Assembly (NCBI GenBank): GCA_030528525.1
Contig: JAUMYT010000004.1
Coordinates: 68,407-132,406, forward strand
DNA from: Pasteurellaceae bacterium
GTDB lineage: Bacteria; Pseudomonadota; Gammaproteobacteria; Enterobacterales; Pasteurellaceae
Length of the DNA: 64,000 nucleotides
Reading direction: 5' to 3'
Part shown: one piece after another, positions 3,154 through 50,982 of the stretch
Layout: each line of letters opens with the position of its first letter
Numbering within the stretch: the stretch's first letter is position 1
Made by a program: the position numbers and the translations under genes
The notes under the pieces: model-generated
Told to the model about the DNA's origin: nothing
Databases searched by the model: none
The model's input: the letters and a program-made list of their open reading frames with translations, nothing else

Positions 3154-3249
3154 TACTTTCTCCTTTATGTATGGATATTTTAGGGTTCATTTTGTCCAAA
3201 ATAGACAGCGGGCGAATTATAAGCAAGTCATGCAAAATTGGTACCGATT

Positions 3250-3774
3250 TTAACTTAATTTACCAATCTTTAAGGCAAACTCACGTACTTGAGTCCAGTC
3301 GGTGTATTCATATTCTTGGCGGGTATCTGTTTCACCGCCAGTCATCTTCATGATAAAACGGATAATCAAGCGATCAAACCAACGATAACGAGGGTAGCGT
3401 AGCGCTCCTGCGAAAACCTCGACCCAATTGGGTTTCCAATCAATTTTCTCCAGCAGTTTACGTGTATAAATATTTGTTGTCGGTGTATTGCGATTAGCTT
3501 TACGAGCAGTAAGATTCACACTAAAAAAGGCAGAATGTCTTTGATTAAGCAAGGCGGAATGCATACTAATAAACTGTGCCAAAACCGGTGAAAAGTGACC
3601 ATACCGAATCGATGCACCAATAACAATCCGATCAAATTCAGCAAGCTGATTTGATGACATATTGATATGATCACGCAAGCAAAACAATTCTACATTCTCA
3701 AGATGTGAAGCAATATACTCTGCAATTTTTTGGGTCTGCCCGTCGTAGGTAAGATAGAAAATAGCGGTTCTCAT
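3250..3774 (-). CDS. hemG: menaquinone-dependent protoporphyrinogen oxidase (flavodoxin-like)
   Basis: 174 aa, strong match in memory to E. coli HemG (VIGASIRYGH..., ALRYPRYRW...). Confidence 0.85.
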   Translation of the reverse strand: MRTAIFYLTYDGQTQKIAEYIASHLENVELFCLRDHINMSSNQLAEFDRIVIGASIRYGHFSPVLAQFISMHSALLNQRHSAFFSVNLTARKANRNTPTTNIYTRKLLEKIDWKPNWVEVFAGALRYPRYRWFDRLIIRFIMKMTGGETDTRQEYEYTDWTQVREFALKIGKLS

Positions 3775-3846
3775 AATATCTGATACATAAAAATTATCAT
3801 TTTAGCTGAATTCCAACGAAGTTTAAATGAAACTAGTAAGTACAGT

Positions 3847-4458
3847 CTAAGATAATATACCCTCTAATTTCAATTTAGCTGCAAATCGCTGTGTGAGTGT
3901 TTGCTCAGCTTGCTCAAATTGGGTGGGATTGATGCCAAGCAATAACTCGATTTTCTCGCCAAATTGTTGTTCGATGATTTCAATGTCCCAATCGGTGATC
4001 CAATGTTGTAGGCTGTGAAATTGGTCGTAGTCGCACTGCAAGCGATAAGGTTGGCGTAACACTTTGCGTTCGGTTTGCAGCTGTGCTAAGGCTTGTTGCA
4101 CACCGTTGCCGCAGGCTCGCACCAATCCGCCTGTGCCAAGCAAAATGCCGCCGTAATATCGCACCACCACCGCACTGATTTCGCCCAAGCCACTGCCAAG
4201 CAAATAGTTCAACATTGGTTTGCCTGCCGTGCCAGACGGCTCGCCATCATCAGAAAAGCCGTATTGCTGTGAATCGGTTGGCGAACCTGCCACGCAAGCC
4301 CAGCAATGGTGGCGAGCCTGCGGGTGCAGGGCTTTGATTTCCGCCCAAAAGGCTTTGGCTTGTTCTAAGCCTTCGGTGTGGCGAAGGTAGGTAATGAAGC
4401 GACTTTTTTTGATCTCTTCTTCAAAAATGATGCCAGCGGCAGGGATAAAAAATTGCAT
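3847..4458 (-). CDS. yigZ: IMPACT/YigZ family protein
   Basis: 203 aa, EEIKKSRFIT..., GFSDDGEPSGTAGKPML... YigZ signature. Confidence 0.8.
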   Translation of the reverse strand: MQFFIPAAGIIFEEEIKKSRFITYLRHTEGLEQAKAFWAEIKALHPQARHHCWACVAGSPTDSQQYGFSDDGEPSGTAGKPMLNYLLGSGLGEISAVVVRYYGGILLGTGGLVRACGNGVQQALAQLQTERKVLRQPYRLQCDYDQFHSLQHWITDWDIEIIEQQFGEKIELLLGINPTQFEQAEQTLTQRFAAKLKLEGILS

Positions 4459-5838: not shown

Positions 5839-8481
5839 ATGTCCACACAAGAAAAAACAGTTACCACCGCAAGTTACGACGACTTGCAAGATATGGTGGC
5901 GTCAAACGATTCGGGGGGAAGAAACCCACGTGGGTTTACCAAAAAACTGATCGTTGGCGTGGCAATTTTATGGTCGCTTTTTCAACTCTATTACACTTCG
6001 CCATTTCCATTTTGGCTACAAGAAGTGATCCGCAATGCAGGCATTGATTTGAATGTCGTGATTGATGATACCAAAGCACGCTCCATTCACTTAGCCTTTG
6101 CACTCTTCTTGGCGTATCTCTCATTCCCTGCATTTGCGAACTCGCCAAAACATCGAGTGCCTTATCAAGACTGGATCTTCGCCACCCTTGGGGCATTTTT
6201 AGGAGCGTATTACATCTTCTTCTACGAAGGCTTAGTGACCCGTTTTGGTGCTCCGAATACGCAAGATATTATCGCGGGCTGTTTAGGCGTATTGTTATTA
6301 CTTGAAGCCTGTCGCCGTAGTCTTGGATTACCGCTCGTGATTATCGCTGGCGTGTTCTTGTTGTATAACTACTTCGGGCAATTCTTGCCGACCGATTGGA
6401 TTATCAGCCATCGTTCAGGCTCGCTCTCGCAAATTGTGAACCAACAATGGATCACCACCGAAGGCGTATTCGGCGTGGCGTTGGGCGTTTCGACTAAATA
6501 TGTGTTCTTGTTCGTGTTATTCGGTGCATTATTGGATAAAGCAGGGGCTGGCAACTACTTCATCAAAACTGCTTTTGCCTATTTAGGGCACTTTAGTGGC
6601 GGGCCAGGTAAAGCAGCAGTCGTTTCATCGGGTTTAACAGGATTAGTATCGGGTTCATCTATTGCCAACGTGGTGACCACAGGCACTTTCACTATTCCAA
6701 TGATGAAACGTGTTGGCTTGAATGCCGAAAAAGCTGGGGCGGTGGAAGTTGCTTCATCAGTAAACGGACAAATTATGCCGCCAGTAATGGGGGCAGCTGC
6801 GTTTCTGATGATTGAATACGTCAATATGCCGTACAGCCAGCTGATTACTCACGCTTTCTTGCCTGCGTTCATTTCCTATATCGCCTTGGTGTATATCGTG
6901 CATTTGGAAGCTCAAAAACTTGGTTTGAAAGGCTTAGAGCGTACCGATCCGCCAAATCCAATTTATGTGACGTTAATTCGTGCCTTAGCGAGTTTCCTAG
7001 TGATTTGCATCGTCTATTTCGCAATGGAATTTAGCTTAGGTTGGATTAAAACGGCCGCACCTGATTATGCCTTCTCGATTGTGGCAGCCTTGTTAGCGGT
7101 GGTTTACCTTGCACTCATTCGCCGTGTGGCAAGTTTCCCTGATTTAGAACCAGACGATCCAAACGCACAAATTGTCAAATTGCCGTCCACCAAACCAACG
7201 GTAAACGCAGGCTTGCATTATTTATTGCCTGTGGTGGTGTTGATGTGGTGTTTGATGATCGAACGTATGTCGCCAGGGCTTTCTGCCTTTTGGGGAACAA
7301 TGGCGTTAGCGGTGATTTTGATTACCCAGCGTCCATTGCTCGCCTTCTTCCGCAACGAAAACAGCAATAAATTTGCTCTAGCTAAACAAGGCTTGAACGA
7401 GCTGAAAGACGGCTTGGAAGCAGGGGCAAGAAATATGATCGGCATCGGGATTGCCACCGCAACCGCTGGGATCATCGTAGGTGTGGTTGCCTTAACGGGC
7501 TTTGGTGTACAGCTTTCTGGCATTATCGAAATGCTCTCAATGGGCAACATTTTGTTGATGCTGATCTTAGTCGCCATTTTCAGCTTGATTTTAGGAATGG
7601 GCTTGCCAACCACCGCAAACTACATCGTGGTGTCTTCGTTGATGGCATTAGTGATTGTCGAAATCGGCAAGCAAAACGGCTTAATTGTGCCGTTAATTGC
7701 GGTGCATTTGTTCGTGTTCTACTTCGGTATTATGGCGGACGTGACCCCACCTGTCGGCTTGGCGTCCTTTGCCGCCGCAGCCATTTCGGGCGGTAGCCCA
7801 ATCAAAACTGGGGTACAAGCGTTCTATTACAGCTTGCGAACTGCCGTGTTGCCGTTCCTGTTTATTTTCAACACCGACTTGTTGTTGATTGATGTCGGCT
7901 GGGCGAAAGGCTTACTGGTGTTCGTCACGGCGACCATCGGGATTTTGGTCTTTACCGCCGTCACAATGGGCTATTTCTTCACTCGCAATAAATGGTGGGA
8001 AGGGGTAGTTTTATTGCTCGCCGCCTTTACGCTATTCCGCCCAGGGTTCTTTATGGAACACCTCTCGCCAACGGCACGCCACGTTGAGCCAGCCCAATTA
8101 GTGCAAGAGCTTGAACGCACCCCAGCAGGGCAGAATTTAATGCTCAAAGTATCAGGGCTAAATCCATACGGCAAAGAGATCGAATTTTACTCGCAACTCA
8201 TTGTGCCGGAAGGCAATTCGGGCGAAGAACGGGTGAAAGCACTCGGCTTACTGTTGTTAGACACAGGCGAGAAAATCGAGATTGACGGCAAGCCGTCACC
8301 GAAGATTATCATCGACAACGTGGAAATCGACTCGCCAGCGGCAAAAGCAGGGTTGAACTGGGATCAAGTGCTGCTAGACGTAGCTCTGCCACGGGATTCC
8401 TTACCAAAAGAGCTGATGTTCATTCCAGCGTTATTGCTGATTTTGGGCGTGGCGTGGAATCAACGTCGCCGCCGCAAGTAG
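5839..8481 (+). CDS. TRAP transporter fused permease (TAXI type) with C-terminal extension
   Basis: 880 aa polytopic membrane protein downstream of TAXI receptor gene. Confidence 0.85.
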   Translation: MSTQEKTVTTASYDDLQDMVASNDSGGRNPRGFTKKLIVGVAILWSLFQLYYTSPFPFWLQEVIRNAGIDLNVVIDDTKARSIHLAFALFLAYLSFPAFANSPKHRVPYQDWIFATLGAFLGAYYIFFYEGLVTRFGAPNTQDIIAGCLGVLLLLEACRRSLGLPLVIIAGVFLLYNYFGQFLPTDWIISHRSGSLSQIVNQQWITTEGVFGVALGVSTKYVFLFVLFGALLDKAGAGNYFIKTAFAYLGHFSGGPGKAAVVSSGLTGLVSGSSIANVVTTGTFTIPMMKRVGLNAEKAGAVEVASSVNGQIMPPVMGAAAFLMIEYVNMPYSQLITHAFLPAFISYIALVYIVHLEAQKLGLKGLERTDPPNPIYVTLIRALASFLVICIVYFAMEFSLGWIKTAAPDYAFSIVAALLAVVYLALIRRVASFPDLEPDDPNAQIVKLPSTKPTVNAGLHYLLPVVVLMWCLMIERMSPGLSAFWGTMALAVILITQRPLLAFFRNENSNKFALAKQGLNELKDGLEAGARNMIGIGIATATAGIIVGVVALTGFGVQLSGIIEMLSMGNILLMLILVAIFSLILGMGLPTTANYIVVSSLMALVIVEIGKQNGLIVPLIAVHLFVFYFGIMADVTPPVGLASFAAAAISGGSPIKTGVQAFYYSLRTAVLPFLFIFNTDLLLIDVGWAKGLLVFVTATIGILVFTAVTMGYFFTRNKWWEGVVLLLAAFTLFRPGFFMEHLSPTARHVEPAQLVQELERTPAGQNLMLKVSGLNPYGKEIEFYSQLIVPEGNSGEERVKALGLLLLDTGEKIEIDGKPSPKIIIDNVEIDSPAAKAGLNWDQVLLDVALPRDSLPKELMFIPALLLILGVAWNQRRRRK

Positions 8482-8485
8482 GCTA

Positions 8486-8524
8486 CAAGGGGGGGAGAAA
8501 CTCAAAGATTTTGTAAAATCCCCT
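8486..8524. repeat. Family A repeat (CAAGGGGG-N-TTTTGYAAAA-N-CCCCT)
   Basis: caagggggggagaaactcaaagattttgtaaaatcccct directly after stop codon. Confidence 0.75.
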
Positions 8525-8596
8525 ATGATGAATACGGTTCTTCACTTAAGCGAAGAGCCGTTGATCGTTTAAAAATTTGAGAAAATAGAACATATT

Positions 8597-9331
8597 ATGA
8601 GTGAACAAATCTATGGTATTCATGCAGTAAAGTCGTTTTTAGATAACGCACCAGAACGTTTGATTGATGTGATGGTATTAAAAGGGCGAGAAGATAAGCG
8701 GCTTAATCCGCTACTTAGTGAATTGCAAAAAATGGGCATTGCGGTGCAGCAGGTCAATCGTCAAACGTTAGACAACAAAGCACAAGGCGAGGTACACCAA
8801 GGTATTATTGCTCGCATTGTGCCTGCAAAAGAGCTCAATGAACACGATCTTGACCAGATTCTAGATCAAACCGCTACGCCATTGTTACTGATTTTAGACG
8901 GTGTGACGGATCCACATAATCTTGGTGCTTGTCTGCGAACAGCAGATGCGGCAGGGGTTGATGCGGTGATTGTACCGAAGGATAAGTCAGCACAACTCAC
9001 GTCCACAGCTCGTAAAGTGGCTTGTGGCGCAGCAGAAACGGTGCCGCTGGTGCGTGTGACTAACCTTGCTCGTACTATGCGAGATCTGCAAGCACGAAAC
9101 GTCTGGATTGTCGGTACGGCGGGGGAGGCTGAAGCAAGCCTTTATCAAGCAAAACTCACAGGGGCAATTGCATTGGTGATGGGGGCAGAAGGCGATGGTA
9201 TGCGCCGTTTAACGCGTGAACATTGTGATCAACTTATCAGTATTCCGATGGCAGGTTCAGTTTCTTCACTGAATGTGTCAGTGGCTACGGGAGTGTGCCT
9301 ATTTGAGATTGTACGTCAAGGGCGTATTTGA
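8597..9331 (+). CDS. rlmB: 23S rRNA (guanosine2251-2'-O)-methyltransferase
   Basis: 244 aa SpoU-family methyltransferase, N-terminus matches RlmB. Confidence 0.85.
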
Positions 9332-9364
9332 TTGAGTTAGCACACTGACGATAAATAACGGGGA

Positions 9365-9655
9365 TCAACGGGGCTCCGTTTTTTTACAGCCACACTTAGG
9401 AGGAACAGGATCATCTCCCCCTTCACTCAGTGGGTGGCAGCGGCAAATACGTTTGATGGTTAACCAGCCACCCTTTATTCCACCGTGAATGCGAATCGCA
9501 TCTAGTGCATATTGGGAGCAAGTTGGATAAAAACGGCAGCGAGGCCCGAGTAGCGGGCTGATTGCATAACGGTAGAAATGCACCGCACCAAGCAAGAGAT
9601 AAGCAATTAGACTGGGTTTGGCGTGTTTTTCGCTAGACGAATGTGACGTTGCCAT
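9365..9655 (-). CDS. yidD: membrane protein insertion efficiency factor YidD
   Basis: [29 protein letters not shown] motif; overlaps rnpA 3' end. Confidence 0.85.
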
Positions 9656-9990
9656 AGTTTTTCTAAGGTTTCAAACAGTTCTTGATTGGATAATTTGCCA
9701 ATACCCCCTTTTGCCACAAACACAAAATCACAATGTGGTAGTTCGTGTTGTTTCAAACGGAAGCTTTCTCGCACAAGGCGTTTGATGCGATTGCGGTCGT
9801 GAGCACGTTTTAAATGCTTTTTCGCCACCGTTAAACCCAAGCGGGCATGTTTAATTGTATTGGAGCGAGCTAATAACGTGAGTTGAGGAGTGCTGGCACG
9901 GAAAGGCTGTTCGAAGACTGCCTTAAATTGAACGGGAGCTAACAAACGTAGCTCCCGAGAGAAATTTAGCTTATTCACACTATGTAACAT
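9607..9990 (-). CDS. rnpA: ribonuclease P protein component
   Basis: 127 aa, [23 protein letters not shown] signature; immediately downstream of rpmH. Confidence 0.85.
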
Positions 9991-10025
9991 TGCGTTCTGC
10001 TAGTGTTTTGGCTAGCTTGCTGCAA

Positions 10026-10160
10026 TTATGCAGATAAGCTTTTACGACCTTTAGCACGACGACGTGCTAATACTTGACGACCGTTTTTTGTTGCCATACG
10101 AGCACGGAAACCGTGAGTACGAGCACGTTTTAATACTGATGGTTGAAATGTACGTTTCAT
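10026..10160 (-). CDS. rpmH: 50S ribosomal protein L34
   Basis: Minus-strand translation [44 protein letters not shown]; not in ORF track (<60 aa). Confidence 0.9.
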
Positions 10161-10393
10161 TTGTATCTACCTAAAAATAAAAATTGGCAACAGCCAAATA
10201 AGGAATATGAAAAATAGAGTGCGAATTCTACCGATAAATTTGCCCAAGATCAAGGCAAATTGCGAAAATTGTCTAGGGTAAAAGGCGGGATGGCTGCTGA
10301 TAATTTGCCCATTCCTTGATCTAATCTTATTCTTTTAGACGAAGAATGTGATATGTTATCACACATCAATTGGTCTCATTGAAGGAGAAATGT

Positions 10394-11581
10394 GTGGTTA
10401 ATGCAGTTAAACATTTTTTGAAGCTTGAATCAGCCAGCGGTATTTTACTGATGATTTTTGCCACGTTTGCGATTATTTTGGCGAATACGCCATTTCGTGA
10501 GTGGTATTTTGATTTTTTAGGCATGCCAGTGAGTGTGCAAATTGGTTTATTTAGTATTCATAAACCGTTGTTAATGTGGGTCAATGACGGCTTTATGGCA
10601 GTCTTTTTTGTGTTAGTGGGGCTTGAAGTTAAACGTGAGCTGTTGGAAGGGGCTTTATCTAGCTACCAAAGAGCGATTTTTCCCGCTGTGGGTGCTATTG
10701 GCGGCATGGTGGTCCCTGCACTGATTTATTGGTTTCTCAATCTCGAACACCCAGAGCACCAAGCAGGCTGGGCAATTCCGATGGCAACGGATATTGCGTT
10801 TGCACTCGGTGTGTTGGCGTTACTCGGTAAACGTGTCCCATTTGCGTTGAAAATTTTCTTATTGGCACTGGCTATTATTGATGACCTTGGTGCGATTGTG
10901 GTCATTGCTATCTTTTTCTCTCATGAATTAAGTACCACTGCGTTAGTTTCCGCAGGCTTGGCGATTGCTGTTTTGGTGATGATGAACCGTATGAAAGTGA
11001 CTGCGTTGTGTGCTTATATGGTCGTAGGCTTGATTTTATGGGCATCTGTGCTGAAATCAGGGGTGCATGCAACGCTCGCAGGAGTAATTATTGGCTTTTG
11101 TGTGCCTTTGAAGGGAAAAAATGGTGAAACGCCACTCCATCAGTTTGAACACATTCTTGCTCCTTGGTGCTCATTTGTGATTCTGCCGCTGTTCGCTTTT
11201 TCAAATGCCGGCGTGACCATTTCCGGTATGGGGTTGAATAGTTTCACCTCAACGTTAACGCTAGGGGTTATCTTTGGTCTTTTGGTTGGAAAAAGCTTGG
11301 GCGTGTTTGGTTTCAGTTATCTTGCTGTGAAACTTGGTATTGCGAAATTATCAGAAGGGATTAATTTCAAGCAGATTTTTGCGGTCTCCGTGTTGTGTGG
11401 CATTGGATTTACCATGTCGATGTTTTTAGCCGGTCTTGCTTTTGGAGGGGAAGAGGCTGATGGTAAGTTTATCTCATTGGCACGTTTAGGGATTTTGATT
11501 GGTTCATCTGTTTCGGCAATCTTAGGTTACTACTTGCTCAAATGTTTCACCACACCAGTTGTTGAAGCTGAGAAAGCTTAG
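10394..11581 (+). CDS. nhaA: Na+/H+ antiporter NhaA
   Basis: Aligns to E. coli NhaA from [15 protein letters not shown]...; likely GTG start at 10394 with AAGGAG 6 nt upstream (ORF track TTG at 10370 also possible). Confidence 0.85.
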
Positions 11582-11593
11582 GTAAGATTGCGA

Positions 11594-11625
11594 CAAGGGG
11601 GTGAGAAAAATCGATTTTTTGTCAA
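11594..11625. repeat. Family A repeat (half element)
   Basis: caagggggtgagaaaaatcgattttttgtc. Confidence 0.6.
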
Positions 11626-11681
11626 TATTCATCAATGCAAACAGGCTATATTTGTAGATATAGCCTGTTTTATTTTATGTA

Positions 11682-12431
11682 TTAATCAAAAAGCACATAA
11701 GCAATAGCGATAAGTGCACCAGCACCTACAAGAAGTGGCAAGAAACGGGCGAACTGGCAAGGAGAGCAGTTATCCGATTTATTGCAGGCTTGTGGTGTTG
11801 TTTCAGTGTTTTTTACTTTTTTACTGGTGTAAATCGTGGCTTCGTTGAAGGCTTTTTCAAATTCCTGAGCGGTGTTTTTCATCGCTAATTTGGTTGATGT
11901 GCGATACATTGGTTTGCCTTCAAATTTACTTAGATCTACATCAATATCAGTGGCAATAAACACTAAATCAGCAGCTTGTACTTCTTCTGCTGTAATTAAA
12001 TTGTTTGCACCAATTTGCCCTCGGGTTTCAATTTTGATATTCCAACCTTGGGTTTTGGCGTAATTAGAAATGGCTTCTGCAGACATAAAGGTTTGTGCTA
12101 CGCCCGTTGGACAAGCGGTTACTGCTACAATGTTTTTAGTTTTGCCATGATTTTCTAGTGGTGTGTCTTCTACGTGCAGCGGGGCTGCATCGGCGATCGC
12201 TTGCTGTAATGTAGTTTCAGGTTGGTTTAACGCTTGCTCAAGATCGACAATAGCCCCTTTTCTACCAATAAGGTTAGCTGGAACGCTTGGTTCAAACAGT
12301 AGCACAATATCAGCTTGTTCGGTTGCAACAATTTGGTGTTGTTGTTGGGTTGCTGCGTTTGTTAGTGCTTGTTCAACGAGAAATTGGCGAGCATTGCCAA
12401 GTTGTGCCGGAAAAACGAAAGAAATGTTCAT
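11682..12431 (-). pseudogene. fruA: PTS fructose-specific IIB'-IIB fragment (truncated fruA-like, ends inside first TM helix)
   Basis: 249 aa matches FruA residues 1-~215 (KNIVAVTACPTGVAQTFMSAEAI) then stops after one TM segment; full FruA IIC domain (~350 aa) missing. Confidence 0.5.
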
Positions 12432-12776
12432 GAGAAAGTCCTATATGTGTCAAAATAAATGATATTGCGAGGAGTGAGTTATCCTGTTTACGATTTGCAA
12501 TACCGATGAAATGGTTTGCATGGTTAAGTTTAACGCATTCAGCAGGCTGAATGTGGGTTTAAATGATAAATTTAGCCTAGCGACCACACAGTTTACAATG
12601 AGTTTACTGTGTGGCACTAGGGCTTGTAGTACGCCCTCAAGGTTGAGAAACGTTTCATGAACACCCGTTTAGTATGCTACATTTTCAATGCCCTTAGCCT
12701 GTAATCGAGCAATGACAACAGTGTATAACGGGAGCAAGGAACATTTCTTCAACGCTCAAGTTCTTGGCGATTGGGT

Positions 12777-13904
12777 TTACGTACTATTGCCGCATGATTC
12801 TGTTTCTCTCTCACCTAGTCCCTGTTCAATGGCTTGAGTGAGCTGTGTGAGTGCAAGTTTTGCATCATGACCACGAGCCACGATTCGTAGTCGTTCGCCT
12901 TTTTTTACCCCTAATGTCATGATTTCCATCACGCTTTTACCATCAACTAATGAGGTTTGGGCATCTAGATTCTGTACTTGAATGTGAGCGACAAATTTTT
13001 TTGCAATATTAACGAAGAAAGTGCTAGGTCTGGCGTGCAAACCATGTGTGTTTCTCAGTGTGATAATTACCTCGACTTCATCATTTAGAGTATGTTCATT
13101 TGACTCTAATATGTTGTTGAAAATTGCCAGTAGCTCTGCCTGATTAGCATTAGCTATTTTGTGTAGGATAGCGGGTTGGATCAGCTTTGTTAATTGTGGT
13201 TGAAGGCGTTGATCAACCATCGCCACACTAATTAGCGTCATACCTTGTTGATTGCGAGCAATTGCAATGCCGTTGGCAAGATTGCCGCTTGAGCTATCAA
13301 GCAAATAAATATTTGGCGCTAATGCAAGGGGGAGAGAAATACGGACTTTTTGCAAAAAATCGTGATCCACATAGCCTAGTTCATACAAGGTGGTTGCATT
13401 CACAAGAGAAAGAGTCGCTAAATTAGGAGCATCAAGTGTTAAATGGATTAAGCGTTCATTGATGCTTGGTAAAGACGGTTTGCCACTAAGTAGCATGATA
13501 AATTGGTTTAAATCTTGGGTGGTAGCGATCAGATTTGCTTTAGTATCATCGTTCAGTAGACGACTAAGATGTTGTAATAAGCATAGATGGTCGTCAGAAT
13601 TTGCTGCAATACCAATGACGACATAAGCGGTGTTGCCTTCTCCCCAATCGACGCCTTTGGGGAATTGATAAATTTGTACTCCCGTTTTTTTTACCTGTTC
13701 ACGTCCACCTAAGTCACCGTGGGGAATCGCAATGCCATTGGCTAAATAAGTAGACGCCTGTTGTTCGCGTATCTGCATACTTGTGGCATAAGCTGGTACA
13801 ACATAGCCATTTTCAATCAAACCTTGCGCAACAAGTGCAATAGCTTGTTCTTTATTGTTTACATTGGCATTGAGTTGCACATTTTTTTTCGAGAGAGTGA
13901 GCAT
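12777..13904 (-). CDS. fruB: PTS fructose diphosphoryl transfer protein (IIA-M-FPr)
   Basis: 375 aa; IIA-Fru N-domain (GIAIPHG), C-terminal HPr-like domain (NTHGLHARPSTFFVN...GVKKGERLRIVARGHDA). Confidence 0.8.
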   Translation of the reverse strand: MLTLSKKNVQLNANVNNKEQAIALVAQGLIENGYVVPAYATSMQIREQQASTYLANGIAIPHGDLGGREQVKKTGVQIYQFPKGVDWGEGNTAYVVIGIAANSDDHLCLLQHLSRLLNDDTKANLIATTQDLNQFIMLLSGKPSLPSINERLIHLTLDAPNLATLSLVNATTLYELGYVDHDFLQKVRISLPLALAPNIYLLDSSSGNLANGIAIARNQQGMTLISVAMVDQRLQPQLTKLIQPAILHKIANANQAELLAIFNNILESNEHTLNDEVEVIITLRNTHGLHARPSTFFVNIAKKFVAHIQVQNLDAQTSLVDGKSVMEIMTLGVKKGERLRIVARGHDAKLALTQLTQAIEQGLGERETESCGNST

Positions 13905-14045
13905 TGGATTCCTAGTTCACAGCGTTTTTCATTAACAGGTCGGTTAGAAATTGTAGCGTTTTAACTGTAAAGTGGTACAGTTAAAACGTAAAGAGAAATA
14001 AAAAAATCCTATCATTGTAAATGTTAGGATTTTTATGGTGACATG

Positions 14046-18802: not shown

Positions 18803-18877
18803 TGGCTGGAGTACTAGGATTCGAACCTAGGAATGCTGGGATCAAAACCCAGTGCCTTACCGCTTGGCGATACTCCA
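18803..18877 (-). tRNA. tRNA-Gln (anticodon TTG)
   Basis: Reverse complement TGGAGTATCGCCAAGCGGTAAGGCACTGGGTTTTGATCCCAGC...CTCCAGCCA; cloverleaf with TTG anticodon. Confidence 0.85.
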
Positions 18878-18914
18878 AAAGAAAAAACTAACCTAAAGTT
18901 AGTTATATTTGATA

Positions 18915-18989
18915 AGAAATAAGATGGCTGGAGTACTAGGATTCGAACCTAGGAATGCTGGGATCAAAACCCAGTGCCTTACCGCTTGG
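18915..18989 (-). tRNA. tRNA-Gln (anticodon TTG), second identical copy
   Basis: Identical 75-nt sequence to previous copy. Confidence 0.85.
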
Positions 18990-19024
18990 CGATACTCCAG
19001 TCGTTTTATTTGCTAAGCCATAAA

Positions 19025-19109
19025 TGGTGCGGGACGAGGGACTTGAACCCACACACCTCTCGGCGCCAGAACCTAAATCTGGTGCGTCTACCAATTTCGC
19101 CAGTCCCGC
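19025..19109 (-). tRNA. tRNA-Leu (anticodon TAG)
   Basis: Reverse complement GCGGGACTGGCGAAATTGGTAGACGCACCAGATTTAGGTTCTGG...; long variable arm; near-identical to E. coli leuW. Confidence 0.85.
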
Positions 19110-19111
19110 AA

Positions 19112-19188
19112 TGGTGGCTACAACGAGATTCGAACTTGTGACCCCAACATTATGAGTGTTGTGCTCTAACCAGCTGAGCTATGTAGCC
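19112..19188 (-). tRNA. tRNA-Met (elongator, anticodon CAT)
   Basis: Reverse complement GGCTACATAGCTCAGCTGGTTAGAGCACAACACTCATAATGTTGGGGTCACAAGTTCGAATCTCGTTGTAGCCACCA. Confidence 0.85.
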
Positions 19189-31205: not shown

Positions 31206-32438
31206 ATGACAACAAAAGTTTCTCTTGATAAATCCAAAATCAAATTCGTCCTACTTGAAGGCGTGCACCAAAACGCCCTTGATGCCCTAAAAGCCGCAGG
31301 CTATACCAATATCGACTTCTACAAAAAAGCGTTAGACGGTCAGGAATTGGTCGAGGCGATCAAAGATGCCCACTTTGTCGGCATTCGTTCCCGCACTTTT
31401 TTAACCGAAGAAGTACTGGCACAAGCCCCGAAACTCATCGCCATCGGCTGTTTCTGTATCGGCACTAACCAAGTGGATCTGGAAGCTGCTAAACGCCGTG
31501 GGATTCCTGTGTTCAACGCCCCGTTCTCCAACACTCGCTCGGTGGCGGAATTGGTCTTGGGCGAAATTTTGTTATTGATGCGTCAAGTGCCCACAGCAAA
31601 TGCAGAAGTTCACCGTGGCATTTGGAATAAATCCGCCACAGGCTGTAACGAAGTGCGTGGCAAAAATCTTGGGATTATCGGCTACGGACATATCGGTTCG
31701 CAATTGAGCATTTTGGCGGAAGCCATTGGTATGCGAGTCTATTTCTACGACATCGAAAACAAATTGCCACTAGGTAACGCTCAACAAGTTGCTAGCCTTG
31801 ATGAATTATTGGCGTTCAGCGATGCCGTTTCATTGCACGTGCCTGAAAATCCATCGACCAAAAATTTATTAAATGCCAGCAATCTGTCGAAAGTGAAAAA
31901 AGATGCGGTGATCATCAATGCGGCTCGTGGCACGGTGGTGGATATTGATGCGTTGGTCGATGTGTTGAAATCAGGGCATATTCGTGGGGCAGCGTTAGAC
32001 GTGTTCCCTGAAGAGCCGGCGTCCATCAACGATCCATTTGTTTCGCCATTAACCGCATTTGACAACGTGATTTTAACCCCGCACATTGGCGGATCGACCT
32101 CCGAAGCACAGGCGAATATCGGCTCGGAAGTGGCAAATAAATTCGTGAAATATTCCGACAACGGCTCCACACTCTCTGCGGTAAACTTCCCAGAAGTTTC
32201 CCTACCAGAACACAGCGGCACCAAGCGTTTGTTACACATTCACACCAACAAACCAGGTATTTTGAACAAAATCAACCAAGTGTTCGTGGATTTAGAGGTA
32301 AACATCGCCGCCCAATACTTACAAACCGACCCAACCATTGGTTATGTGGTGATTGATGTCGAATCAGAAAATACTGACGAAGCATTAAAACGTTTGAAAG
32401 CGATTGATGGCACCATCCGCAGCCGTGTGTTGTATTAG
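31206..32438 (+). CDS. serA: D-3-phosphoglycerate dehydrogenase
   Basis: 410 aa; NAD-binding GIIGYGHIGSQ; C-terminal ACT domain. Confidence 0.9.
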   Translation: MTTKVSLDKSKIKFVLLEGVHQNALDALKAAGYTNIDFYKKALDGQELVEAIKDAHFVGIRSRTFLTEEVLAQAPKLIAIGCFCIGTNQVDLEAAKRRGIPVFNAPFSNTRSVAELVLGEILLLMRQVPTANAEVHRGIWNKSATGCNEVRGKNLGIIGYGHIGSQLSILAEAIGMRVYFYDIENKLPLGNAQQVASLDELLAFSDAVSLHVPENPSTKNLLNASNLSKVKKDAVIINAARGTVVDIDALVDVLKSGHIRGAALDVFPEEPASINDPFVSPLTAFDNVILTPHIGGSTSEAQANIGSEVANKFVKYSDNGSTLSAVNFPEVSLPEHSGTKRLLHIHTNKPGILNKINQVFVDLEVNIAAQYLQTDPTIGYVVIDVESENTDEALKRLKAIDGTIRSRVLY

Positions 32439-32507
32439 GGCTTAAGCAATTCTATTGTTAGATAGAACACAATAGTATTGCTTTGATTTTAACCATTTTT
32501 GAATGGA

Positions 32508-32540
32508 AAAAGGCACTTGTTATATGCAAGTGCCTGTTTG
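32508..32540. terminator. Bidirectional hairpin between serA and island gene
   Basis: aaaaaGGCACTTGttatatgCAAGTGCCtgttt: 8-bp stem flanked by A-run and T-run. Confidence 0.5.
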
Positions 32541-32545
32541 AATCA

Positions 32546-33277
32546 TTAAATGAATTTAATACAATCTAACTCTTCTAGATAAATCTTATATAACTCCATA
32601 AATATCTTATCAATAAGAATCAATAGTGAGAACCATATAAAATAATTCTCATACGGATAATCTTCTTTTACTAGTGTATTCAATGATGGTAAGTTCTGCT
32701 GATAAGATCTTGTATTGTGAGCAATTCTATTTCTATTTTTATAGAAACTATCTTCATACTGTTGTTTTAAGTGTTCACCTAGAATATTCTTACAATCAAT
32801 CGCAAAGTAAGATTCCTTAATTGTTTTCCAATAATCTAAATAGGTTGTATAGCCTCTTTGAGACCAATAATAAAAAAGGCTATTCTCGACAGTATTACTG
32901 ATATTGCTATAAGATAATATCTCCTTTTTTAGTTTATTAAAGGTGTTTACAAAATCAAAATTAGGTGATGTTATTTTAATTTGTTCTATAAGGAATTTAT
33001 ATACATCATTTTTATCCTTATACTGTGAGCAACCAGATTTAGACAGGTTGTTATTTAAGAATGTATATCTAAAATTATGGTTGTTGTTTGCCATTTCCCA
33101 TAGGATACATTTTATTTTCTGTTCTTGTGCTCCAGCCATTTTAATAAGAATAGACTGCAGTATATAATCTGATAAGGGATGGGTTTCAATGCCATGTTTT
33201 ATATTTTTAACCGATGATACTCCCTCATTCAGGATATCTGAAACAGGGGATAATATAAATTTAATATTTTGGTTCAT
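32546..33277 (-). CDS. Hypothetical protein with HEPN-like Rx4H motif (RNRIAHN), possible Abi_2/AbiD-like; in low-GC island
   Basis: 243 aa ORF, about 25-30% GC by hand count on samples; motif ...YKNRNRIAHNTRSY...; 17-nt overlap with upstream DUF262 gene. Confidence 0.6.
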   Translation of the reverse strand: MNQNIKFILSPVSDILNEGVSSVKNIKHGIETHPLSDYILQSILIKMAGAQEQKIKCILWEMANNNHNFRYTFLNNNLSKSGCSQYKDKNDVYKFLIEQIKITSPNFDFVNTFNKLKKEILSYSNISNTVENSLFYYWSQRGYTTYLDYWKTIKESYFAIDCKNILGEHLKQQYEDSFYKNRNRIAHNTRSYQQNLPSLNTLVKEDYPYENYFIWFSLLILIDKIFMELYKIYLEELDCIKFI

Positions 33278-34487
33278 TTAAATACTCCCCATAAATTTCA
33301 ATTGATCGACTAATTCTCTTTCTAAGGTGTGTAAGCCCATTGGGTGAACGACTATGGCGTTCATCATTTTTCATGTCATTAATACAATTTTCTATTTCGT
33401 TTCTTATTTCATAATTTTTATCATAGTTGATAGAGCAACCATCAAGTAAAATATAATATATAGCCCCAAACAAATACATATCTAAATCAATTATTGATTT
33501 GAATTCTTTATTATCTGCTAACAAAGTAGAAAGATAATTTTTTAAAGCGGACATTCGGATTATATGATTGTTATTTTCGATTAATGGCAGAGAATCTCCA
33601 AATTTACTATGTTCTTTCTCTGATTCTTCATTTTGCTCTGAGCAGCAAGAGATCACAGAATATATATACTCTTCGTAGTATTTCTCCATTTGAGATTTTT
33701 GACCTCTAGCAACCTTTTTAATATCATTACAATATTTATATTCGGATAACAACGACAAATATCGAATAAAGTCCGCTTTGCTTGGGTTACCATTAATGGT
33801 TAACTTATATTCTTTAGTAAATTCTGGATCAAAAAATGGTTGTAAATCCTCAACTAAATAATAAAGAGAAGCCCTGCTTTCTTGTGGAAGTAAAGGTTTT
33901 CCTTGGATATTTATTTCTTTAAAAACAGAAGCATAATATTTTTGGTGTGCTTTTTGATCGTTATTATCTGGAACTAAATAGCAAAAGCCTAAATAATGCT
34001 TGTCGAAAAAATCATCCTCTAGTTGTAATGATAATTCTTTATATTCTTTTCCTATCTTCGTGATAATTTGCTCTTTTGTTTTCCCTTTTTCCTGCAACAC
34101 CGCAAAACGCCATTCTAGGATATTATCGATCCTATCGTCAGGATCGTCATTTTCATCAATTGTACTGTCGTATAGTTCTATATTATCTGATGATTTCTTA
34201 AAACGTTCTTTATCAGGAAATATACCCAAATAAGCGAGTAAGATACTGGTAAGTCTTTGCTGACCGTCGATAATAAGATTGACATTTTCTCCAGATTCAT
34301 CTCTGAATGAGCCAATCGTGACAGGAGGGATAAAATGCTCTTTTCTAAAGGAGTTTATTAATGTGCTCACTTTGGGTTCATCCCATACAAAATATCGCTG
34401 ATATTTGGGTAATAATAAATTTTTTGATAAAATTAGATCGAGCCAATGTTTTAGAGAATATTCTCCATAATAAACTTTATTTCCCAT
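33261..34487 (-). CDS. DUF262 (ParB/Srx-like, GmrS-type N-terminal domain) protein without DUF1524 HNH domain; in low-GC island
   Basis: 408 aa; KYQRYFVWDEPKVSTLINS...NLIIDGQQRLTSILLAYLG matches the DUF262 DGQQR signature; C-terminal 170 aa unassigned. Confidence 0.7.
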   Translation of the reverse strand: MGNKVYYGEYSLKHWLDLILSKNLLLPKYQRYFVWDEPKVSTLINSFRKEHFIPPVTIGSFRDESGENVNLIIDGQQRLTSILLAYLGIFPDKERFKKSSDNIELYDSTIDENDDPDDRIDNILEWRFAVLQEKGKTKEQIITKIGKEYKELSLQLEDDFFDKHYLGFCYLVPDNNDQKAHQKYYASVFKEINIQGKPLLPQESRASLYYLVEDLQPFFDPEFTKEYKLTINGNPSKADFIRYLSLLSEYKYCNDIKKVARGQKSQMEKYYEEYIYSVISCCSEQNEESEKEHSKFGDSLPLIENNNHIIRMSALKNYLSTLLADNKEFKSIIDLDMYLFGAIYYILLDGCSINYDKNYEIRNEIENCINDMKNDERHSRSPNGLTHLRKRISRSIEIYGEYLNEPKY

Positions 34488-34744
34488 AAAATGCCTCTTG
34501 CACTGATGTTGTCATATTATGTTCTTCACTCACAATGAGAACTCTATTTTTTCATTACTTTCTCAACTCTATTATCCTCTAGTTTATTCCAACATGCTTT
34601 TCTCCATACTACTCTCTTTGGGAATTAAAGGTACACAGACGGCTAAAAGAGACACTATAGGTGCGACAGCATAGTGTTGAGCGAGTAGTGAATGGTGAAT
34701 TATTGTTTATAAAGCAAACAGTGACAACTTTCGGATTTTCAATT

Positions 34745-34760
34745 TGTGAGGCTGATCACA
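34745..34760. promoter_or_regulatory. Consensus CRP binding site
   Basis: aattTGTGAggctgaTCACAaatt: perfect TGTGA-N6-TCACA. Confidence 0.6.
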
Positions 34761-34788
34761 AATTAATATAGACTTAATTACGTGAAGA

Positions 34789-34822
34789 GGAAAAAAAATG
34801 GCTAGCCTTTTGGCTAGCCATT
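34789..34822 (-). terminator. Rho-independent terminator of dppA paralog
   Basis: Minus strand AATGGCTAGCC-aaaa-GGCTAGCCATT followed by TTTTTTTT. Confidence 0.75.
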
Positions 34823-34844
34823 TTCGTGCTATGAGAAGTTTGGA

Positions 34845-36440
34845 TTAATCGGTTAACTTCGTACCATAGAAATACGAGTAGCCGAATGGGCTTTGTTTGT
34901 AATCCTGTACACGTTTGCTGGTTGGGGCAAAGTTGATCGAGTGAGCCACGTTGATCCACGGGGATTGCTCTTTGATAATCACTTGAGCTTGCTCGTAGAG
35001 TTTGGCTCGCTCGCCTTTATCAGACAAGCCAATCGCTTTCGCTAATAACGCATCTAAATCCGCATTTTTGAAACGTGCGTAGTTGCTGTTGCCGATGTTA
35101 TCGCTGCCTAATAATGGCGATAAGAAGTTATCAGGATCACCATTGTCGCCTGACCAGCCGTAAGTCCCTGCGGTCAATTCACCTGCCTTGGTGCGTTTGA
35201 TGTAATCGCCCCATTCATAGCTAACCAGTTTGGTTCTTACGCCCACTTTTTCCCAGTCTGCTTGAACTAATTCCGCCATACGGCGTGGGTTCGGGTTAGA
35301 CGCACGCACCACAGGTTGCACCCAAATGTCCGTTTCAAAACCGTTTTCAAAACCCGCTTCTTTCAATAATTCCTTGGCTTTTTCTGGATTGTATTCGTAG
35401 TCGGTAATGCTGTCGTTATAGCCCCAAATTGTTGGTGGCAATGGGTTTTTCGCTTGCACGCCTGCACCACGATAAACCGCTTCTAAAATTGCTTTTTTGT
35501 CTACCGCATAGTTCAACGCTTGACGCACTTTTACGTTATCAAACGGGGCTTTTTCGGTGTTGAATGCGATATAAGCAATGTTCAACCCTGGCTGTGAAAG
35601 CAAGTTCACTTTCGGGTCGGTTTTCATTTTGTCTAAATCGGCTGCATTCGGGAAGTCCATCATATCGCACGCCCCTGCTTGCAATTTCGCATAACGAGCG
35701 GTGGCATCTGGCACGATGTCGAAGATCAAACGATCAATATCCGCTTTACCGTTCCAGTAGTCTTTGTTAGCTAAGAAACGAATTTTTTGATCTAACTGAT
35801 AACCTGCAAACACGAATGGGCCTGTACCGATTGGGGTGGTGTCCACTGTTTCAGGTTTGCCTTCGGCTAACATTTTGTCGGCATACTCGGCAGAGTAGAT
35901 CGAGATGAAGTCCATCCCCAAGCTTGACAAGAACGTTGAATCTTGACGATTTAAAGTAATTTTCACCGTGTGATCGTCCACTTTTTCCACCGATTTCAAC
36001 AAGGTTGGGAATTTCATCGCCTTGAAGTACGGGTAGGTTGCTTTCGACACATTGTGGTATGGGTGGTTTGGATCTAACTGGCGTTGGAACGAGAATACCA
36101 CATCGTCCGCATTGAAATCACGGCTCGGCTTGTAATCTTTGGTGGTGTGGAATTTCACGCCTTTGCGTAAATTGAAGGTGTAAGTTAAACCATCTTCGCT
36201 CACCGTCCAACTTTCTGCCAATGCAGGCTCGATTTCCGTTGAACCACGTTTGAATTCGACCAAACGGTTATAAACTTGTTGCGAGCTGGCGTTATAAGAA
36301 ATCCCGTCCATCACTAACGCAGGGCTGAAGCCTGTTGGCGAACGACTCACGCAGTTGATAAAAGTTTTATCCGCTGCTTGGGCGAAACCTGAAACGAGTA
36401 AACTCGCCGCAATCAATGAGAATTTAGTCTGTAATTTCAT
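34845..36440 (-). CDS. ABC transporter substrate-binding protein, family 5 (orphan DppA/HbpA-like paralog)
   Basis: 531 aa with signal peptide; extensive similarity to dppA at 40011; no permease or ATPase genes adjacent. Confidence 0.8.
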   Translation of the reverse strand: MKLQTKFSLIAASLLVSGFAQAADKTFINCVSRSPTGFSPALVMDGISYNASSQQVYNRLVEFKRGSTEIEPALAESWTVSEDGLTYTFNLRKGVKFHTTKDYKPSRDFNADDVVFSFQRQLDPNHPYHNVSKATYPYFKAMKFPTLLKSVEKVDDHTVKITLNRQDSTFLSSLGMDFISIYSAEYADKMLAEGKPETVDTTPIGTGPFVFAGYQLDQKIRFLANKDYWNGKADIDRLIFDIVPDATARYAKLQAGACDMMDFPNAADLDKMKTDPKVNLLSQPGLNIAYIAFNTEKAPFDNVKVRQALNYAVDKKAILEAVYRGAGVQAKNPLPPTIWGYNDSITDYEYNPEKAKELLKEAGFENGFETDIWVQPVVRASNPNPRRMAELVQADWEKVGVRTKLVSYEWGDYIKRTKAGELTAGTYGWSGDNGDPDNFLSPLLGSDNIGNSNYARFKNADLDALLAKAIGLSDKGERAKLYEQAQVIIKEQSPWINVAHSINFAPTSKRVQDYKQSPFGYSYFYGTKLTD

Positions 36441-49606: not shown

Positions 49607-50230
49607 TTAATCTCTCGTATAATCTTCCCGCACAATCCGCACATATTGCCCGATACTGTGCCAGCCGAGTGTGAGATAAAGCTGTTTGCCCATTTCGCTA
49701 GCACAGAGCAAGCCTTGGTGAATACCCCGTTCAGCCGCTTTTTTGTTGAGTAACGCCATCACTAGCGTGCCGAAACCCTGACGGCGGAAATTCGGCTCGG
49801 TGCCGATTCTGTCTGGCACAATAAAGCCGTGGTAAAAACCCGCTTGCCCTTCGCACACCAGCTCGTCGTTTGGGCTGAAGAGGCTTAACACCTCCCGATT
49901 GTCGCTTTCTTCCCATTTAAGGGTAAATTTTTCGGGTAACGTGACCTCTTGTTGGGACAGTTGCTCACATACCATCATATCGGCAGTCATTGTCTGCTTC
50001 CAGCCTTGCGGAACCGCCTTCAAACCGCTAACGCACAAATAATCTTTATTCGACACTCTCGGCAAAATTTCGCCTAAATTTTCTGGGCTGAACATCAACC
50101 ACTCAAATTGTCGCCTGCCGTCATTAAGGGCAAAGCAGTATCCGTTTTCAACAGCGGTAGGTTGCGGAATTTGGCGAGAAATCACCCAACCGCCGATCCA
50201 ATTTTCCCAAAATGTTTTGCTGTTCATCAT
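49607..50230 (-). CDS. GNAT family N-acetyltransferase
   Basis: 207 aa; C-terminal RRQGFGTLVMALL...GW acetyl-CoA binding motif. Confidence 0.65.
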   Translation of the reverse strand: MMNSKTFWENWIGGWVISRQIPQPTAVENGYCFALNDGRRQFEWLMFSPENLGEILPRVSNKDYLCVSGLKAVPQGWKQTMTADMMVCEQLSQQEVTLPEKFTLKWEESDNREVLSLFSPNDELVCEGQAGFYHGFIVPDRIGTEPNFRRQGFGTLVMALLNKKAAERGIHQGLLCASEMGKQLYLTLGWHSIGQYVRIVREDYTRD

Positions 50231-50244
50231 GTCTCTTTTCCATA

Positions 50245-50277
50245 TTTTGCAAAAACTCGGCGGTTCTCACCCCCTTG
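50245..50277. repeat. Family A repeat (reverse orientation)
   Basis: ttttgcaaaaactcggcggttctcacccccttg. Confidence 0.7.
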
Positions 50278-50982
50278 CTAATCCGCCGAATAATACAATT
50301 TGCCGATTTCTATCTTCTGGCGACCTTGGGCTTCACGCCATTTATTCGTATCACGCAACGAATACACACAGCCACAATACTCTTGCTGATAGAACCGCTC
50401 CCGTTTGCTGATTTCAATCATTCGTTGCGAGCCGCCGCCTTTTCGCCAGTTGTAATCCCAATAGACCACATCATCGTATTTTTCCGCCGCACGATGTCCA
50501 CAGCCGTTGATTTGGTTCATATCTTTCCAGCGAGAAATCCCCAAGCAACTGGTAAATACAGGGAAGCCATTTTCGTGGGCGTATTGAGCGGCTTTTTCAA
50601 ACCGCATATCAAAGCACATTGTGCAACGAATGCCACGCTCTGGCTCGTCTTCCATACCTTTGGCACGGTTGAACCACTCTTGGCGGTCGTAATCGGCATC
50701 AATAAACGGAATACCCCATTTTTCCGCAAAACGAATGTTCTCTTCCTTGCGGATCAAATACTCTTTGAGTGGGTGAATATTCGGGTTGTAGAAGTAGATG
50801 GTAAATTCAATACCCGAAGCGTGAATCGCTTCCATTACTTCGCCCGAACAAGGGGCACAGCAAGAGTGCAACAGCAATTTGTTGTGTCCGTTGGGGAGTT
50901 CTAATTTTTCACGCACAAACGGAGCGTTGGGGTCTTTGCCTTTACGGGTTTTCTTGATGGTTTTTTGTTCTGTCATAATCAT
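50278..50982 (-). CDS. queH: epoxyqueuosine reductase QueH (DUF208)
   Basis: [11 protein letters not shown] and CTMCF cysteine motifs. Confidence 0.8.

What the first reader, a model, noticed from the sequence alone, without database searches (positions are those of the whole stretch)
33261..33790. C-terminal half of the DUF262 protein is an unassigned domain with no HNH finger
Canonical GmrSD, BrxU and SspE couple DUF262 to a DUF1524 His-Me nuclease with EHIxP and N/H motifs. Here residues after about 235 (IRYLSLLSEYKYCNDIKK ... CINDMKNDERHSRSPNGLTHL) show none of these motifs. The effector function may therefore be delegated to the downstream HEPN-like protein, or this region may be a new sensor or effector domain.
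Basis: seen in the sequence. Interest (0 to 1): 0.6.

Follow-up and report, generated by a model that had tools for sequence, protein, structure and literature searches.

The report
DUF262–HEPN two-gene defence cassette
The back half of this DUF262 protein is a conserved, mostly helical domain with no nuclease motif, and the gene always sits next to a small HEPN-type RNase gene, so the pair is probably a two-gene anti-phage module of a type already known (PD-T4-2-like), not a new kind of system.

Summary

The most likely mechanism is a DUF262 NTPase sensor, a helical DNA-binding or coupling domain, and a separate HEPN RNase effector. This architecture is already known: PD-T4-2 ("DUF262, HEPN") is experimentally validated, and ParB-HEPN operons were predicted in 2013. 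This is a sequence-distinct family, so it is a new member of a known kind and of modest interest.

The parts
33261..34487 (-). Gene A: 408-aa DUF262 protein (DUF262 domain plus a family-specific C-terminal helical domain)
   Evidence: ORF. PF03235 hit at E 1.4e-24. More than 2131 homologues of ~390-420 aa aligned over their full length.
33861..34427 (-). DUF262 / ParB-like NTPase domain, residues 21-209, with motifs QRYFVW (30-35), DGQQR (74-78; 34254-34268) and FKEIN (189-193)
   Evidence: Pfam. Motifs found by regex and translation. All motif residues are invariant in 40 homologues.
33264..33845 (-). C-terminal domain, residues 215-408: beta-hairpin plus seven helices, no His-Me/HNH motif, confined to this protein family
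   Evidence: AF2 model, pLDDT 81.8. No fold match. No HMM match. A profile search finds it only at the C-terminal end of ~400-aa proteins.
32546..33277 (-). Gene B: 243-aa HEPN-like partner, the predicted RNase effector
32717..32734 (-). HEPN Rx4H motif RNRIAH (residues 182-187 of B)
   Evidence: Translation. R182, N183, A186, H187 and N188 are invariant in 95 homologues.
33261..33277 (-). 17-nt overlap between the stop of A and the start of B (translational coupling)
   Evidence: ORF coordinates. Overlaps of 4-14 nt in called genes of homologous loci.
34699..34727 (-). Promoter-like site (TTGTCA-17-AATAAT) about 210 nt upstream of gene A
   Evidence: Consensus scan, 10 of 12 matches. The total number of such sites in the region is not above the shuffled expectation, so this is only a candidate.
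32511..32535 (-). Terminator-like hairpin immediately after gene B
   Evidence: Scan: 9-bp stem followed by a T-run. Inverted repeat I1.
32440..34790 (.). Low-GC islet (GC 0.26-0.34 against 0.44-0.50 in the flanks) holding only genes A and B, between a serA-like gene and a substrate-binding-protein gene
   Evidence: Composition profiles. ORF list. No flanking direct repeats of note.

Best explanation
Genes A and B form a self-contained, horizontally acquired two-gene anti-phage cassette of the 'DUF262 sensor plus separate HEPN RNase' type. A carries an intact ParB-like DUF262 NTPase (QRxxxW, DGQQR and FxxxN motifs). Its C-terminal ~190 residues form a helical, non-catalytic domain in the same position as the helical 'ParBDB' or middle domain that follows DUF262 in NsnA, GmrSD, SspE and DndB. 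I infer that this domain helps bind nucleic acid and/or dimerise, and that it couples the NTPase switch to protein B. B is a HEPN ribonuclease with a complete Rx4H site and is the effector that A lacks. On sensing phage DNA, possibly modified DNA, NTP binding or hydrolysis in A would release or activate B. B would then cleave RNA and stop phage replication, probably by abortive infection or growth arrest. Shown here: the domain content, the absence of a His-Me finger, strict synteny, conservation, and the HEPN fold and motif. Inferred: defence function, the sensing trigger, the A-B contact through the C-terminal domain, and RNase activity.
For: DUF262 hit and intact motifs. No DUF1524/HNH by HMM, motif or fold search. 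The C-terminal domain is as conserved as the N-terminal domain and occurs only in this architecture. B is HEPN-like by fold, by its invariant RNxxAHN motif, and by weak AbiD, HEPN_MAE_28990, Abi_2 and RiboL-PSP HMM hits. A and B are adjacent or overlapping in 14 of 14 independent loci from Bacteroidota, Gammaproteobacteria, Streptococcus, Treponema, a cyanobacterium and one viral contig. Neighbours in those loci include CBASS cyclase plus effector, MmeI-type IIG restriction-modification, SoFic, AbiEi/AbiEii and MADS components, and the Moraxella copy is cargo of a Tn7-like element. B's divergence correlates with A's C-terminal domain after controlling for the N-terminal domain (partial Mantel r=0.48, p~0.0006), and the reverse partial correlation is -0.07. 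Precedents: PD-T4-2 ('DUF262, HEPN') protects E. coli from T4 both natively and when transplanted (PMC9519451). HEPN families in operons with ParB were predicted in 2013 (PMC3710099). DUF262 acts as an NTPase sensor in SspE and GmrSD, and the SspE middle domain binds DNA (PMC12065111). A DUF262-Schlafen RNase fusion defends E. coli (PMC13056530).
Confidence: 0.6

Rival explanations
1. The pair is a toxin-antitoxin or addiction module. B (HEPN) is a toxin that A holds inactive, and the main role is stabilising mobile DNA, with no specific phage-sensing function for DUF262.
For: Overlapping two-gene operon with a HEPN toxin-like second gene. The Pseudanabaena and Moraxella copies sit near TA or transposon genes. 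HEPN toxins paired with non-nuclease partners are common (PMC3710099).
Against: A is large (408 aa) with a fully conserved NTPase site, unlike simple antitoxins. The family is absent from 72,556 plasmids. Neighbours are mostly defence systems. The closest architectural analogue, PD-T4-2, is a validated defence system. TA and abortive-infection roles are not mutually exclusive.
Confidence: 0.15
2. The C-terminal domain is itself a new catalytic effector, such as a new all-alpha nuclease or phosphohydrolase that uses the conserved D239, E268, E272, D336 and H378 residues, and B is only an accessory.
For: Several invariant acidic, His and Arg residues lie in an otherwise orphan domain. No known fold matches, so a new activity cannot be excluded.
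Confidence: 0.07
3. A is a DndB-like DNA-binding regulator or a reader of DNA modification, acting in gene regulation or epigenetic sensing rather than in defence, with B as an RNA-level regulator.
For: DUF262 is related to DndB and ParB. The C-terminal domain is basic in most family members, with median pI 7.95.
Against: No dnd, ssp or methylase genes are consistently linked, and in the window the flanks are serA-like and transporter genes. Patchy distribution across phyla and the low-GC islet fit mobile defence cargo.
Confidence: 0.05

Closest known systems
PD-T4-2 (Vassallo et al. 2022, E. coli ECOR65): two genes annotated 'DUF262, HEPN'
   Same: It is a two-gene operon. Gene 1 is a DUF262 protein (about 360-aa HMM) with no DUF1524, and its region after DUF262 has no Pfam assignment. 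Gene 2 is a small HEPN protein of the RiboL-PSP/MAE_28990/Abi2 neighbourhood. It is validated against T4 both natively and in K-12. The PD-T4-2_A HMM hits 35 of 40 members of this family.
   Different: The PD-T4-2_A match covers only residues 26-83 of the DUF262 core (E 3e-8). PD-T4-2_B matches 0 of 95 partner homologues. The proteins here are larger (408 + 243 aa, against a 1.54-kb system in ECOR65). The C-terminal domain is family-specific. PADLOC rules would therefore not call this locus PD-T4-2.
Menshen NsnA (ParB-DUF262 + ParBDB; Millman 2022; Li et al. 2025)
   Same: It gives the best PADLOC hit (E 9e-14), collinear over residues 17-403 against profile positions 58-383 of 385. The plan is the same: DUF262 followed by a helical C-terminal domain and no DUF1524, with a proposed sensor role and a separate RNase effector.
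   Different: There is no NsnB ABC-ATPase and no NsnC inPIN-nuclease; the partner is a HEPN protein. The C-terminal domain alone does not match the NsnA model.
GmrSD / BrxU / SspE (DUF262 + middle domain + DUF1524 His-Me nuclease)
   Same: The DUF262 domain with QRxxxW, DGQQR and FxxxN motifs is shared, and the HEC-05, HEC-06 and SspE HMMs hit the N-terminal core in 40 of 40 members.
   Different: There is no DUF1524 and no [DE]HxxP motif. The protein ends about 200 residues after DUF262. No similarity to their middle domains was detectable.
HEPN-ParB operons predicted by Anantharaman et al. 2013 (MAE_28990, RiboL-PSP-HEPN, Abi2/AbiD/AbiF)
   Same: [quoted passage not shown] Members of the partner family here give weak hits to exactly these HEPN models.
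   Different: The partner falls below the Pfam thresholds for all of them and has about 100 extra residues. The DNA methylase linkage noted for MAE_28990 is not seen here.
DUF262-Schlafen fusion EcoSlfn7 (2026)
   Same: A DUF262 module is coupled to an RNase effector for phage defence.
   Different: It is a single-chain fusion with a Schlafen nuclease, not a HEPN protein in trans.

Membership tests
GmrSD/BrxU/SspE type IV restriction-like enzymes | N-terminal DUF262 with DGQQR NTP-binding motif | tested here: met
   PF03235 at E 1.4e-24. DGQQR at residues 74-78 is invariant in the family.
GmrSD/BrxU/SspE type IV restriction-like enzymes | C-terminal DUF1524 His-Me finger nuclease with a [DE]H(I)xP motif | tested here: not met
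PD-T4-2 | Operon of a DUF262 protein without DUF1524 followed by a small HEPN protein | tested here: met
   Synteny holds in 14 of 14 loci.
PD-T4-2 | Both proteins match the PD-T4-2_A and PD-T4-2_B family HMMs | tested here: not met
   A matches only residues 26-83 at E 3e-8. B gives no hit in 95 homologues.
PD-T4-2 | Protects against phage | not testable with these tools
   This needs cloning and plaque assays.
Menshen (NsnABC) | NsnA-like DUF262 + ParBDB protein | tested here: inconclusive
   The NsnA HMM gives E 9e-14 collinear over the full length, but the C-terminal domain alone gives no hit.
Menshen (NsnABC) | Adjacent NsnB ABC-ATPase/DUF3696 and NsnC inPIN-nuclease genes | tested here: not met
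   The only partner is the 243-aa HEPN protein. The flanks are serA-like and substrate-binding-protein genes. No such genes appear in the homologous loci.
ParBDB domain (Li et al. 2025) | All-alpha (~8 helices) domain directly after DUF262 | tested here: met
   The AF2 model has a beta-hairpin, two short helices and seven helices of 5 or more residues across 215-408.
ParBDB domain (Li et al. 2025) | Detectable homology or fold similarity to SspE-M, GmrSD-M, DndB-C or NsnA-C | tested here: inconclusive
HEPN superfamily (partner B) | Rx4-6H motif with a polar residue after R | tested here: met
   RNRIAH at residues 182-187. R182, N183, A186, H187 and N188 are invariant in 95 sequences.
HEPN superfamily (partner B) | Helical-bundle HEPN fold | tested here: met
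HEPN superfamily (partner B) | Match to a curated HEPN family HMM above threshold | tested here: not met
   The window protein has no Pfam hit. Family members give only sub-threshold hits: HEPN_MAE_28990 in 5 of 95, Abi_2 in 2, RiboL-PSP in 1, and PADLOC AbiD in 27 of 95 with best E 1.4e-6.
Dazbog (DzbAB) | Match to DzbA/DzbB models | tested here: not met
   No Dzb hits for A or B in the PADLOC scans.

The most novel reading that the evidence does not exclude
Residues 215-408 could be a previously undescribed fold that occurs only in this ~400-aa DUF262 family. It would act as a dedicated adaptor that physically gates the HEPN RNase, converting DUF262 NTP hydrolysis or DNA sensing into RNase release. 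That would be a coupling mechanism not yet described for any DUF262 system, and distinct from the DNA-binding ParBDB domains of SspE, GmrSD and NsnA.
Probability: 0.25. Interest if true: 0.5.

Novelty: new member of a known kind. Interest (0 to 1): 0.33.

Why it matters
The result adds a widespread, sequence-distinct family to the class of DUF262-sensor plus trans-acting RNase defence modules. The family has at least 2,100 clusters at 90% identity for A, 366 clusters at 50% identity for the C-terminal domain, and members in several phyla. Current PADLOC models would not call it, because PD-T4-2_B does not match and NsnB/NsnC are absent. It also offers a compact two-protein system for asking how a ParB-like NTPase controls a HEPN RNase. 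The co-variation between the C-terminal domain and the partner points to where the interface might lie. It does not change the known picture of DUF262 systems.

Tried and rejected
(1) A hidden or degenerate His-Me finger. Rejected by HMM scans, motif regex and fold searches. The one look-alike, EHFIP at residues 50-54, lies in DUF262 and is not conserved.

(2) A truncated GmrSD pseudogene. Rejected because thousands of homologues share the same ~400-aa length, and the C-terminal profile finds no longer architectures among the 150 best hits.

(3) Homology of the C-terminal domain to the GmrSD, SspE or NsnA middle or C-terminal domains. hhalign of the C-terminal profile against 56 GmrSD-like ORFs taken from fetched loci gave probability 0.1%. 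The full-length hhalign alignment runs on past DUF262, but only carried along by the N-terminal match. PADLOC NsnA does not hit the C-terminal domain alone. This is unresolved rather than disproved.

(4) Foldseek against AFDB50 was not available on the machine.

(5) Menshen and Dazbog membership. Rejected on gene content and HMMs.

(6) Carriage on plasmids or phages. tblastn found nothing in PLSDB or INPHARED. A single-sequence scan of IMG/VR found nothing. The alignment-based scan found one viral contig, L087, which also carries the partner.

(7) Flanking repeats or an integrase for the islet. None found.

The synteny count therefore rests on 14 loci, not hundreds.

Full report
1. What is there

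Two minus-strand ORFs occupy a low-GC islet at about 32,440-34,790. Its GC is 0.26-0.34, against 0.44-0.50 in the flanks. The islet lies between a serA-like gene (31206-32438, +) and a periplasmic substrate-binding-protein gene (34845-36440, -).
- Gene A (33261-34487) encodes 408 aa.
- Gene B (32546-33277) encodes 243 aa and overlaps A by 17 nt.
- A terminator-like hairpin follows B (32511-32535), and a promoter-like site lies upstream of A (34699-34727).
- No flanking repeats, integrase or tRNA mark the islet.
- An identical protein is on record from a Pasteurellaceae metagenome-assembled genome.

2. The observation

Pfam assigns residues 21-209 of A to GmrSD_N/DUF262 (E 1.4e-24) and nothing to the rest. 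Residues 233-408 alone hit nothing in Pfam, PADLOC or NCBIfam at E<=10. The three DUF262 motifs are present and invariant in the family: QRYFVW at 30-35, DGQQR at 74-78 and FKEIN at 189-193.

No nuclease signature was found in the C-terminal half:
- None of 25 family C-termini hits DUF1524, HNH or any nuclease model.
- No [DE]H[ILVMF]xP motif exists in 119 full-length homologues.
- A C-terminal profile finds nothing relevant among PDB sequences.
- The one look-alike, EHFIP at residues 50-54, sits in the DUF262 domain and its His is not conserved.

3. The C-terminal half is a real domain

More than 2,131 homologues (clusters at 90% identity) are 390-430 aa long and align over their full length at about 50% identity. 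Column identity in the C-terminal half (55%) equals that of the whole protein (56%). Invariant residues are D239, F240, R242, E268, Y271, E272, S331, D336, F340, G341, P382, L385, L388, R391 and S395, with H378 near-invariant.

AlphaFold2 with a 120-sequence alignment gives pLDDT 81.8 and pTM 0.82. The model has a short beta-hairpin followed by seven helices, with one variable low-confidence loop; in this copy the loop carries an acidic insertion.

Fold searches against solved structures found nothing specific:
- Foldseek against 350,542 chains gives nothing below E=3.
- No His-Me finger appears, and neither SspE nor BrxU is returned.

A HMMER profile of the domain, run against 1.84 billion representative proteins, finds 366 proteins at E<=1e-3 and 149 at E<=1e-30. 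Every full-length hit among the best 150 is 372-433 aa with the domain at the C-terminal end. At this sensitivity the domain is confined to one architecture.

4. The partner is a HEPN protein

The B family was recovered as 96 clusters. R182, N183, A186, H187 and N188 are invariant, forming RNxxAHN, a canonical Rx4H HEPN motif. A second invariant patch is G49, E52, Q53, K54, W60 and R70.
- Its AF2 model (pLDDT 87.8) is all-helical.
- The window protein hits no HMM itself.
- Among family members, 27 of 95 hit the PADLOC AbiD model (best 1.4e-6), 5 hit Pfam HEPN_MAE_28990, 2 hit Abi_2 and 1 hits HEPN_RiboL-PSP.
- A 318-aa variant is the same protein with a ~70-residue insertion, and it also follows a DUF262 gene.

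5. Linkage and context

Fourteen of 14 independent loci carry a B-family gene immediately downstream of the A-family gene, overlapping it or within about 10 nt. The loci are from Pedobacter (two), Ferruginibacter, Saccharospirillum, Fluviicola, Streptococcus australis, Treponema (two), a Cyclobacteriaceae bacterium, Moraxella osloensis, Draconibacterium, Pseudanabaena, one metagenome contig and one IMG/VR contig.

A PADLOC scan of 99 neighbouring ORFs in 12 of these loci finds a CBASS cyclase with an endonuclease/SAVED effector, MmeI-type IIG restriction-modification, SoFic, AbiEi/AbiEii, MADS components and several PDC candidates. In Moraxella the pair is cargo of a Tn7-like element, next to an MmeI-like enzyme and a helicase plus T5orf172 pair. 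The family is absent from the plasmid and phage GenBank collections.

6. A hint on what the C-terminal domain does

Across 15 A-B pairs, B's pairwise divergence correlates with that of A's C-terminal domain (r=0.67) more than with the DUF262 domain (r=0.54). After controlling for the other domain:
- partial r(C-term, B | N-term) = 0.48, permutation p about 0.0006;
- partial r(N-term, B | C-term) = -0.07.

This fits co-evolution of the C-terminal domain with the HEPN partner. The sample is small, the sequences are related, and partial Mantel tests are liberal, so it is a lead and not a demonstration. The C-terminal domain is more basic than the N-terminal domain across the family (median pI 7.95 against 5.04), but it is acidic in this copy (5.5).

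7. Mechanism

I think the most likely reading (about 0.6) has three parts:
- A is the sensor: a ParB-like NTPase that reads phage DNA.
- Its helical C-terminal domain takes the place of the ParBDB or middle domain of NsnA, GmrSD, SspE and DndB. It provides DNA binding or dimerisation and the link to B.
- B is the HEPN RNase effector, released or activated on sensing, which causes RNA cleavage and arrest of infection.

The domain content, missing nuclease, strict synteny and HEPN features are shown here. The trigger, the A-B contact, RNase activity and defence function are inferred from precedent. Those precedents are SspE and GmrSD sensing and SspE-M DNA binding (PMC12065111), PD-T4-2 (PMC9519451), and DUF262-Schlafen (PMC13056530).

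Rival readings are a plain toxin-antitoxin module (0.15), a new catalytic C-terminal effector (0.07) and a DndB-like regulator (0.05).

8. Comparison with what is known

DUF262 proteins without DUF1524 are already documented in PD-T4-2, Menshen and Dazbog (PMC10952713).
- PD-T4-2. It is listed as 'DUF262, HEPN'. Its B protein gives HHpred hits to HEPN_RiboL-PSP (97.8%) and HEPN_MAE_28990 (96.9%), and it protects against T4 natively and in K-12.
- Earlier prediction. Anantharaman et al. (2013) had already noted MAE_28990, RiboL-PSP and Abi2/AbiD HEPN families in operons with ParB-like genes.
- This family. It has the same architecture but is distinct by sequence. PD-T4-2_A matches only the DUF262 core (residues 26-83). 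PD-T4-2_B matches none of 95 partners.
- Menshen. The best PADLOC hit is NsnA (E 9e-14, collinear end to end), but the Menshen NsnB and NsnC genes are absent and the C-terminal domain alone does not match NsnA.
- ParBDB. Membership could not be established. hhalign against 56 GmrSD-like proteins gives 0.1% probability, and no fold hit to SspE or BrxU was found.

9. Verdict

The system is a new, fairly widespread family within an already recognised and experimentally validated class (DUF262 sensor plus trans HEPN RNase). The one point of real curiosity is the family-restricted helical domain that seems to co-vary with the HEPN partner. Interest is modest (0.33), and the novelty call is a new member of a known kind.

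Noticed in passing
window 34326-34340 (A residues 50-54): The string EHFIP mimics the DUF1524 'EHIxP' His-Me motif but lies inside the DUF262 domain. Most homologues have Q in place of the His (consensus KQFVPP). It could mislead motif-based reading.
   Followed up: yes
L081-L083 (Moraxella osloensis; A at 8001-9188, B at 9175-9918): The closest named homologue pair (57% identity) is cargo of a Tn7-like element (TnsD/TniQ, TnsE_C). It sits beside an MmeI-type IIG restriction-modification enzyme and a ResIII/DEAD helicase plus T5orf172 pair. One assembly (L081) lacks the MmeI gene.
   Followed up: partly
L086 3001-3957 and proteins P0180, P0181, P0186-P0188: A 318-aa variant of the HEPN partner carries a ~70-residue insertion between the conserved N-terminal (EQK/W) part and the RNxxAHN part. 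It still follows a 423-aa DUF262 gene. A Ser/Thr protein kinase gene lies immediately downstream.
   Followed up: partly
window 34794-34825: A perfect 13-bp inverted repeat (AAAATGGCTAGCC/GGCTAGCCATTTT) with T-runs on both sides lies between gene A's upstream region and the stop of the substrate-binding-protein gene. It is probably that gene's terminator and marks the GC-rich edge of the islet.
   Followed up: partly
window 18803-19188: A tRNA cluster on the minus strand (Gln-TTG twice, Leu-TAG, Met-CAT). It is about 13 kb from the islet and is not adjacent to it.
   Followed up: no
window 2001-4000 and 10001-14000: Two further stretches of lower GC (0.405-0.416, against about 0.45-0.48). They were not examined and could be other acquired segments.
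   Followed up: no
window 50212-50904 (+) and 50278-50982 (-): Two long ORFs (230 and 234 aa) overlap almost completely on opposite strands. Only one is likely to be real.
   Followed up: no
L087 141-1968 (IMGVR_UViG_3300012890_000039): This is the only full-length family member found among 2.9 million IMG/VR contigs. It lies near a contig end and also carries the HEPN partner. The family gave no tblastn match in 72,556 plasmids or 50,697 phage records.
   Followed up: partly
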